NCBI GenBank assembly: GCA_030390025.1
Contig: CM059432.1
Location: forward strand, 57,476,001 to 57,540,000
DNA from: Squalus acanthias
Taxonomy: Eukaryota
DNA: 64,000 nt
Direction: 5' to 3'
Below are positions 45,561 through 46,994 of the stretch, one piece after another; within the stretch, counting starts at the first letter, position 1; every line of letters starts with the position of its first letter. The notes under the pieces were generated by a model. It had not been told where the DNA came from, made no database searches, and was given only the letters and a program-made list of their open reading frames with translations. The position numbers and the translations under genes are program-made.

Positions 45561-46904
45561 TGGAGTGAATTGAATTGGCTGAAGACTGGCTTCTGTGATG
45601 GTGGGGACCTAAGGAGGAGTCCAATATGGATCATCCACTCGACACTTGAAGATGGTTGCGAATTCTTCAGCCTTGTCTTTTGCACTCACGTGCTGGGCTC
45701 CATCATCATTGAGGTTGGGGATGTTCATGGATCCTCCTCCTCCCGTCAGTTGTCCACCAGCATTCACGACTGGATCTGGCAGGACTGCAGAGCTTTGATC
45801 TGATCCGTTGGTTGTGGGATCGCTTAGCTGTGTCTTTAGCATGTATGTAGTCCTGTGCTGTAGCTTCACCAGGTTAGCACTTCATTTTAAGATAGGCCTG
45901 GTGCTGCTCCTGGCATGCTCTTCTTGATGGTGAGTGAGGGATATGCCAGGCCATGAGGTTACAGATTATGGTGGAATGCAATGCTGCTGCCCCACTGTGC
46001 CTCATGGATGCTGAGTTTTGAGCTGCTAGATCTATCCCATTTAGCACAGTGGTAAGGCCACACAACACAATGGAGAGTGTCCTCAGTGTGAAGACGGGAC
46101 TTTGTCTCCGCAAGGTCTATGCGGTGGTTACTCCTGCCAATAGTGTCATGGACAGATGCATCTGCGACAGGTAGATTGGTGAGGACGAGGTCAAGTAGGT
46201 TTTTCCCTCACAGGCCCAGTTATGTCCTTTGGCCAGTAGTGGTGCCACCAAGCTACTCTTGGTGATGGACATTGAAGTCCCCCTTGCTACCCTCAGTGCT
46301 TCTTCCAAGTGGTGTTCAACATGGAGGAGTACTGATTCAACAGCTGAGGGAGGGCGGTAGGTGGTAGTCAGCAGGAGGTTTCCTTGCCCATGTTTGACCT
46401 GATGCCAGGAAACATCATGGAGTCCAGAGTCAATGTTGAGGATTCCCAGGGCCACTCCTTCCTCACTGCACACCACAGTGCCACCACCTCTGGTGGGTCT
46501 GTCCTGTCGGTGGGACAGGACATTCCCAGGGATGGTGATGGAGGAGTCTGGGATGTTGGCTGTAAGGTATGATTCTGTGAGTATGACTGTTGCTTGACAG
46601 CTTTCCCAATTTTGGTCCCCAGATGTCAGTGAGGAGGAATTTGCAGGGTTTACTAGGCTGTGATCCGTCGGGTTTTATTCTTATTTTTCTTAACAGTTTG
46701 GTACAACTGAATGGCATGCTAGGCCATTTCAGAGGGCAGTTAAGAGTCAATCGCATATAGGCCAGACCAGGTAAGGACAGCAGATTTCCTTCCACTAAAG
46801 GACATTAGTGAACCAGATGGGTTGGTAGCTTCATGGTCAGCATTACTAGCTTTTTTTAAATTCCAGATTTATTTAATTACCTGAATTTAAATTCCCCAGA
46901 TGTC

Positions 46905-46994
46905 ATGGTGGGATTTGAACTCCTGTTTCCAGATCATTAATCCCAGCCTCTGGATTACTAGCCCAGTAACATAACCACCATGCTACCATACCCC
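46905..46994 (-). promoter_or_regulatory. tRNA-derived Pol III-type internal promoter at the LINE-B 5' end
   Basis: A-box-like TAGCATGGTGG and B box GAGTTCAAATCC on the minus strand. Confidence 0.65.

What the first reader, a model, noticed from the sequence alone, without database searches (positions are those of the whole stretch)
45561..46994. ORF1-less LINE whose 5' end is a tRNA-derived SINE head (SINE-LINE chimera, possibly Pol III driven)
Seen on the minus strand: A/B-box tRNA-like head (46994-46905), then a conserved domain GGTTCACTAATGTCCTTTAG..GAAGGAAATCTGC.GTCCTTACCTGGTCTGGCCTA, then about 90 bp later the APE endonuclease, continuing collinearly to RT and the 3' tail at 41576. There is no poly-A or TSD between head and ORF and no room for ORF1. 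A second head copy is at 37423-37667. From memory the domain resembles the Meta-SINE core (unverified). Established: LINEs normally use Pol II promoters and tRNA heads define SINEs. Inference: an autonomous retroelement that captured a SINE head, or the parent of such SINEs. The family is very successful here (6 copies).
Basis: partly seen in the sequence, partly recalled or inferred. Interest (0 to 1): 0.72.

Follow-up and report, generated by a model that had tools for sequence, protein, structure and literature searches.

The report
Shark Zenon LINE with tRNA head
This is a worn-out copy of an abundant shark-and-ray jumping gene that codes for its own copying enzymes yet starts with the tRNA-like promoter piece normally found on tiny non-coding SINE repeats, so it is likely, though untested, that RNA polymerase III copies it.

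Summary
Observation confirmed. The minus-strand element (46994-41574, split by a nested insertion) is a decayed, 5'-complete LINE. A tRNA-like A/B-box head lies about 350 nt before the APE endonuclease, with no ORF1. It matches the elasmobranch Zenon family of Stuart et al. 2026 (PMC13343379). All 7 of their shark and ray Zenon consensuses (5 species) begin with this head, so it is the family's fixed 5' end, not a chance SINE insertion. Lack of ORF1 is already published for Zenon; the head is not mentioned in that paper's main text. The Meta-SINE resemblance fails. Sense-strand TTTT runs are absent (0 in 9,282 nt), while all 58 related LINE ORFs have them. On non-redundant sequence the effect is modest (0 vs about 2 expected, P about 0.08-0.10), and a DNA-transposon stretch nearby is also TTTT-free over 2.8 kb. 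Best reading: a SINE-headed autonomous LINE transcribed by Pol III (about 0.5, no transcription data). Rivals are a relic head with Pol II transcription, or a head acting as RNA structure. The scan noted this family before, in at least nine other windows of this genome and one other genome.

The parts
46899..46994 (-). tRNA-derived head (anticodon loop reads AGT, Thr-like), with an extra hairpin of about 20 nt between anticodon arm and B box; 5' end of the element
   Evidence: Rfam tRNA 20.2 bits, E 0.2; published Zenon consensuses start here; repeat-to-single-copy boundary in contigs at about 47025
46975..46985 (-). A-box-like motif (Pol III type 2 promoter; consensus pattern recalled)
   Evidence: motif scan
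46912..46922 (-). B-box-like motif, 52 nt from the A box (32 nt in the 37 kb copy)
   Evidence: motif scan
46700..46898 (-). Rest of the 5' UTR, including the conserved domain at 46814-46758; not a Meta, V, CORE or Deu domain as printed for bivalve SINEs
   Evidence: the 295-nt head+UTR folds at z -2.56
45561..46650 (-). APE endonuclease and linker, frameshifted and with deletions
   Evidence: tblastn and blastp to P0001
43128..45560 (+). Nested insertion of a different, CR1-type LINE in opposite orientation, itself interrupted by a short inserted element at about 44032-44774; not part of the Zenon copy
   Evidence: (RVT_1 E 1e-32)
41627..43127 (-). Reverse transcriptase and C-terminal region
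   Evidence: RVT_1 E 1.8e-18
41574..41626 (-). 3' end: AATAAA at 41626-41621 (overlapping the last codons) and a decayed A-rich tail
37423..37667 (-). Second head plus domain, lacking the extra hairpin, cut off by a Harbinger-like DNA transposon end; no continuation found
10365..17125 (-). 5'-truncated Zenon copy in three pieces (10365-10997, 15390-15594, 16070-17125)
30418..31022 (-). 5'-truncated Zenon copy
31682..32493 (+). 5'-truncated Zenon copy
38700..40220 (-). 5'-truncated Zenon copy
54968..56184 (+). 5'-truncated Zenon copy with an open RT frame
   Evidence: RVT_1 E 5.7e-26

Best explanation
[quoted passage not shown] Shown: the anatomy, the family identity, the head as family 5' end in sharks and a ray, and the absence of TTTT on the sense strand. 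Inferred: an ancestral ORF1-less Zenon took over the head (and perhaps the body) of a tRNA-derived SINE or a tRNA by template switching before sharks and rays split. As in SINEs, the internal promoter is regenerated in each full-length copy. Pol III would read about 3.3 kb because terminators were purged, and would stop at the first T run in the flank (15-727 nt past the tail in the six copies). The uncapped RNA would need cap-independent or non-standard initiation, perhaps through the structured 5' UTR. The protein would then insert copies by target-primed reverse transcription, most of them 5'-truncated.
For: 7 of 7 elasmobranch Zenon consensuses (5 species) start with the head and run on into the same domain; 3 of the 7 visibly reach the endonuclease start within the 400 nt shown (read by eye). 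A-box-like in 7 of 7 and B-box-like in 6 of 7, by eye. Six canonical B-box 11-mers hit only 3 rows of the consensus table (1,003 elements per the paper; first 400 nt searchable), all elasmobranch Zenon. Hagfish and coelacanth Zenons (3 of 3) lack the head and have T runs in their first 400 nt; the 7 elasmobranch rows have none (by eye). 0 of 20 related metagenome loci with at least 300 nt upstream have an A/B-box pair. T>=4 runs: 0 in 9,282 nt of family sense strand vs 7.6 expected from dinucleotide shuffles, while A>=4 is normal (42 vs 45); CR1-type controls are at expectation (7 vs 7.4; 24 vs 23.2). 0 of 58 related LINE ORFs of at least 1.5 kb lack TTTT, including the nearest, L010 (7 vs 7.1).
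Against: No transcription, ChIP or RACE data. The copies share ancestry (87-92% identical), so the T-run test rests on about 3 kb: 0 vs 1.9-2.2 expected, P 0.08-0.10 under dinucleotide shuffles and 0.003-0.013 under mononucleotide shuffles. C>=4 runs are also depleted in the focal copy (6 vs 13.3). A Harbinger-like DNA transposon region is TTTT-free over 2,772 nt. The sense strand is T-poor (21%), unlike most relatives. AATAAA before the A tail in 6 of 6 copies fits Pol II. Pol III elements are described as limited to about 0.1-1.3 kb by processivity (PMC10886601 passages). A-to-B spacing is 52 nt against a usual 30-40 (abstract start of PMC7279448). The Rfam match is below threshold.
Confidence: 0.5

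Rival explanations
1. The head is a captured relic or a helper element. The Zenon RNA is made by Pol II, from a promoter elsewhere in the 5' UTR or by read-through from host genes, and the T-poor strand is ordinary compositional bias.
For: LINEs are described as Pol II-transcribed. AATAAA and an A tail end the copies, and poly-A is a general Zenon trait. T-run depletion is weak on non-redundant sequence and not unique to T or to this family.
Against: The boxes are kept at the exact 5' end across sharks and a ray while neighbouring bases vary (by eye). No related LINE ORF is TTTT-free (0 of 58). The depletion is strand-specific.
Confidence: 0.28
2. The head works mainly as RNA structure. A tRNA-like fold is cut by a tRNA-processing nuclease (RNase P type) to free the element's 5' end from a host Pol II co-transcript, as self-cleaving ribozymes do for R2 and RTE elements, or it helps ribosome loading.
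For: The anticodon arm and the extra hairpin stay paired with different sequences among the consensuses (by eye). Head plus UTR folds better than shuffles (z -2.56). 5' ribozymes are reported in six LINE clades (PMC5786205).
Against: Acceptor and T stems pair poorly in the consensuses (by eye) while the box sequences are kept. No ribozyme family matched. This does not explain the missing T runs.
Confidence: 0.17
3. A SINE inserted or fused by chance just upstream of a 5'-truncated LINE at this locus only.
For: Only 1 of 6 window copies shows the junction. Contig cover drops about 100-fold at 46618-46668 and none of the 32 listed contig pieces bridges head and endonuclease.
Against: Published consensuses from 5 species have the same head-domain order at the 5' end. 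The trough coincides with deletions private to this copy. No poly-A lies at the junction.
Confidence: 0.03

Closest known systems
Elasmobranch Zenon (CR1-Zenon) LINEs: CarCar, HypSab, RhiTyp, ScyCan Zenon-1 and SquAca Zenon-1/2/3 (Stuart et al. 2026, PMC13343379; noted as CR1-Zenon-like in the whale shark preprint 10.1101/443036)
   Same: Same 5' sequence by eye (closest to SquAca_Zenon-1), about 3.3 kb, single APE-RT ORF, no ORF1, A tail.
   Different: No difference in kind. The paper's main text has 0 occurrences of 'tRNA' or 'polymerase III', so the head and the T-run absence go unremarked there.
tRNA-derived SINEs (SINE2), including shark HE1 (V-SINE), SacSINE1 (Deu) and chimaera CmiSINEs (CORE) (PMC5499810, PMC4824008)
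   Same: tRNA-derived head with A and B boxes at the 5' end, followed by a conserved body.
   Different: This element is 3.3 kb and encodes its own APE-RT. Its body does not match the Meta, V, CORE or Deu domains printed for bivalve SINEs. HE1 and SacSINE1 sequences themselves were not available.
RTE-1_DAn and relatives (one sentence in Kojima 2018, PMC5786205)
   Same: LINEs reported to contain a tRNA-like sequence that hits many SINE2 elements.
   Different: RTE clade. Position and function of the tRNA-like part are not stated in the passage read.
Bipartite LINE-derived SINEs (Bov-tA/BovB, SINE2-1_ACar/Vingi; PMC5786205) and TRIMp3 elements (Cassandra, Helenus, Ajax; PMC10886601)
   Same: Joining of a small-RNA promoter head to parts of an autonomous retroelement.
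   Different: Those are short and non-coding; here the head sits on the full coding element.

Membership tests
Zenon (CR1 group) | Single ORF with APE and RT | tested here: met
   broken in this copy by frameshifts and a nested insertion
Zenon (CR1 group) | No ORF1 | tested here: met
   about 350 nt from 5' end to endonuclease; trait stated in PMC13343379 section 15
Zenon (CR1 group) | Poly-A tail | tested here: met
   A7-A9 tails in 5 of 6 copies, decayed in the focal copy
Zenon (CR1 group) | Sequence match to published elasmobranch Zenon consensus | tested here: met
   15-nt window motif found in 6 rows, all elasmobranch Zenon; the 7th differs by one base; first 400 nt compared by eye only
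Zenon (CR1 group) | RT phylogeny inside the Zenon clade | tested here: inconclusive
   quick tree of 114 rows had no named Zenon reference; the copy is apart from the nested CR1 and groups with unnamed relatives at support 86
SINE2 (tRNA-derived SINE) | tRNA-derived head with A and B boxes | tested here: met
   Rfam score below gathering threshold
SINE2 (tRNA-derived SINE) | Short and non-coding | tested here: not met
   head is joined to a 3-kb APE-RT frame
SINE2 (tRNA-derived SINE) | Transcribed by RNA polymerase III | not testable with these tools
   only indirect T-run counts
MetaSINE | 66-bp Meta domain directly after the tRNA head | tested here: not met
   a 17-nt Meta motif from the bivalve alignments gave 0 matches at up to 3 mismatches; no likeness by eye; fish MetaSINE sequences (a figure) were not seen
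V-SINE / DeuSINE / CORE-SINE (HE1, SacSINE1, CmiSINE) | V, Deu or CORE central domain | tested here: inconclusive
   no likeness by eye to the bivalve versions; shark consensus sequences not available

The most novel reading that the evidence does not exclude
Elasmobranch Zenon is an autonomous, protein-coding LINE that switched from Pol II to Pol III by capturing a tRNA/SINE head. It purged Pol III terminators from 3.3 kb of coding sequence, was translated from an uncapped RNA, and spread to thousands of copies across sharks and rays.
Probability: 0.45. Interest if true: 0.82.

Novelty: new variant of a known kind. Interest (0 to 1): 0.6.

Why it matters
The textbook split is that LINEs are coding and Pol II-transcribed, while SINEs are short, non-coding and Pol III-transcribed. 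A 3.3-kb coding LINE driven by a tRNA promoter would break that split and be a natural case of translation from a Pol III transcript. It would also show module exchange running from SINE to LINE, the reverse of the published direction. The claim is directly testable with published consensuses and shark cells or RNA. If only the anatomy holds, it is a useful annotation fix for one of the major repeat families of shark genomes.

Tried and rejected
No whole genome is held for this window, so no genome-wide junction count was possible. DNA pattern scans: viral contigs 0, metagenome contigs 0, bacterial genomes 9 loci whose matches stop at 17-29 nt and are taken as chance. Related-locus scan of viral contigs: 56 candidates, none confirmed. 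Protein searches with the head-to-endonuclease frame and with the endonuclease piece found nothing, and that frame did not align to L010; the start codon is therefore unresolved. The open frame 46804-46463 may be an accident of this copy's deletions. Relaxed ARAGORN on the loci gave noise (222 calls in 89 sequences). Rfam on 16 related loci found no tRNA or ribozyme. Sequencing runs: no RNA holder listed. In one search head bins were deeper than ORF bins in a run guessed to be RNA, but contig depth cannot rank parts, so this is not used. A possible decayed target-site duplication (47007-46995 vs 41578-41566) was not tested against chance. Meta-SINE membership rejected. The idea that shark SINEs are internally deleted versions of this LINE (earlier notes) could not be tested here. 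Supplements of PMC5499810 could not be read and may hold SacSINE1 alignments. Repbase, Dfam, SINEBase and the Zenodo consensus files were not searchable.

Full report
Observation. The minus strand from 46994 carries a tRNA-like head. It has an A-box-like motif at 46985-46975, a five-pair hairpin with a 7-nt AGT loop at 46966-46950, an extra hairpin of about 20 nt, and a B-box-like motif at 46922-46912 (box patterns recalled). Rfam aligns tRNA over 46992-46901 at 20.2 bits, E 0.2, below threshold; ARAGORN finds nothing. An A/B-box pair scan of the whole window gave 3 hits: this head, the second head at 37658-37605, and one inside the nested CR1. The second head aligns at 76% of columns and lacks the extra hairpin. 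It is cut at 37423 by a DNA-transposon-like end, and no continuation was found.

Coding part. The stretch 46587-46291 aligns to the endonuclease of intact homolog P0001 (32% over 95 aa, E 2e-12), and homology runs on in order through the linker. A different CR1-type LINE in opposite orientation interrupts the element at 45560-43128. The copy at 16070-17125 crosses that point without a gap. RT follows (RVT_1 E 1.8e-18), then AATAAA and a decayed A tail at about 41574. Six copies lie in the window, 87-92% identical over the shared 3' 600 nt; only this one has the 5' end. About 350 nt separate the 5' end from the endonuclease, so there is no ORF1.

Is the head the family's 5' end? No genome was available. 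Contigs of 4 runs from 3 coded organisms were laid on 45700-47200. In the 3 DNA-like runs 28,086, 97,747 and 53,698 contigs were laid. Head and ORF are both highly repeated, and depth drops from 18,000-284,000 in bin 46975-47025 to 0-25 in the next bin. Cover dips about 100-fold at 46618-46668, and none of the 32 listed pieces bridges head and endonuclease, so this call alone does not prove the junction. Loose ends show sequence missing from this copy, for example at 46750-46754.

The decisive evidence is published. Stuart et al. 2026 (PMC13343379; I read passages, the first part of Results, sections 15 and 43, and searched the supplement) report Zenon elements in elasmobranchs, coelacanth and hagfish, all without ORF1 and with a poly-A tail. 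A 15-nt motif from the window occurs in 6 rows of their consensus table, all elasmobranch Zenon; a seventh differs by one base. All 7 rows (5 species, 2,886-3,314 nt) begin with the same head at the same position as the window copy; 3 of them visibly reach the endonuclease start within the 400 nt displayed. The 3 hagfish and coelacanth rows do not have the head. Six canonical B-box 11-mers hit 3 rows in the table, all elasmobranch Zenon. Only the first 400 nt of each row could be seen, and I compared them by eye. The main text has 0 hits for 'tRNA' and 'polymerase III'. Their Table S3 lists almost no intact ORFs (0/2313, 1/1419, 3/612), so the family is old and mostly dead.

Relatives. 80 related loci came from metagenomes. 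In a quick RT tree of 114 rows the window copy groups weakly (support 86) with L010, L011, P0001, P0002 and P0004, apart from the nested CR1; no named Zenon was in the tree. None of 20 loci with a long ORF and at least 300 nt upstream has an A/B-box pair, and Rfam finds no tRNA in the 16 loci scanned. The head therefore looks like an elasmobranch acquisition (inference).

Meta-SINE lead. In the supplement of Nishihara et al. 2016 (PMC4824008; passages and supplement parts 1-3 of 4) the bivalve Meta, Deu, V and CORE bodies do not resemble the domain by eye. A 17-nt Meta motif has 0 matches in the window at 3 mismatches. Luchetti et al. 2017 (PMC5499810; parts 1-2 of 6) describe SacSINE1 and CmiSINEs with L2 tails; their sequences were not readable.

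Pol III test. The sense strand of 10 family segments (9,282 nt) has 0 runs of T>=4, against 7.6 (dinucleotide) or 14.4 (mononucleotide) expected; A>=4 is 42 vs 45. CR1-type controls have 7 vs 7.4 and 24 vs 23.2. Of the 80 related loci, 58 have an ORF of at least 1.5 kb, and none lacks TTTT. A further 7% of neutral decay would add about 1 run per copy length, yet none is seen. Against: the copies are not independent, and on about 3 kb the result is 0 vs 1.9-2.2 (P 0.08-0.10) or 0 vs about 5 (P 0.003-0.013). TTTT ranks only 18th lowest of 256 4-mers in the focal copy. C>=4 is also low (6 vs 13.3). A Harbinger-like region has a 2,772-nt TTTT-free stretch, although five such regions overall hold 2-9 runs each. 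The signal supports Pol III without proving it.

Mechanism. I favour an internal Pol III promoter (0.5). The boxes sit at the exact 5' end, persist in sharks and a ray, and coincide with T-run absence, while head-less Zenons have T runs in the part seen. The first downstream TTTT lies 15-727 nt beyond the tails. The AATAAA in all 6 copies is ambiguous: it overlaps the last codons, fits Pol II, and is also used by polyadenylated Pol III SINE transcripts (abstract starts of PMC12101331 and PMC10572872). The open problem is translation. The endonuclease frame of this copy has no secure start codon, and protein searches did not settle it. Rivals are a relic head with Pol II transcription (0.28), an RNA-structure or processing role (0.17), and a chance insertion (0.03).

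Novelty. The family, its lack of ORF1 and sequences containing the head are in print. I found no description of the head or of Pol III transcription in 9 literature searches; the library lacks most subscription journals, and Repbase and Dfam were not searchable. [quoted passage not shown] Kojima 2024 (PMC10886601; passages) restates that non-LTR elements use Pol II and that Pol III limits length. Also consulted: PMC7245038 (part 1 of 4), PMC11481361 and 10.1101/443036 (passages). Earlier notes of this scan report the same family in other windows; they are unchecked AI notes and are not counted as support. I reached the Zenon paper before seeing the note that names it. Verdict: a real, family-wide and apparently unremarked feature of a known family; new variant of a known kind; interest 0.6.

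Noticed in passing
L013:179-209; L017:390-420 and 449-479: Head-less relatives share a 5' UTR hairpin motif (twice in L017); the hagfish Zenon-2 consensus has a look-alike by eye. Rfam found no ribozyme; it could be an ancestral Zenon 5' UTR structure.
   Followed up: partly
window 46966-46923 (-): The extra hairpin between anticodon arm and B box looks like a duplicate of the anticodon arm; it is present in most published consensuses with differing sequence and absent from the 37 kb head.
   Followed up: partly
window 53100-58419 (-): LTR-retrotransposon-like stretch (RNase H, integrase, zinc knuckle) with a Zenon copy inserted at 54968-56184.
   Followed up: no
window 1-1949, 4036-7400, 24770-27800, 32496-37422, 60763-62100: Harbinger-like DNA transposon pieces (Myb/SANT and DDE_Tnp_4 hits for the first two; the rest by self-alignment); used only as base-run controls.
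   Followed up: partly
window 43128-45560, 8948-12463, 19800-21847, 28718-29317, 48222-49110: Many pieces of CR1-type LINEs, often nested in one another; Zenon pieces alone cover about 14.5% of the window.
   Followed up: no
window 15187-15392: Short tandem duplication with a 77-nt period at about 97% identity.
   Followed up: no
window 52776-52895 and 58642-58761: 120-nt direct repeat at 90% identity flanking the LTR-type stretch, possibly remnants of its terminal repeats.
   Followed up: no
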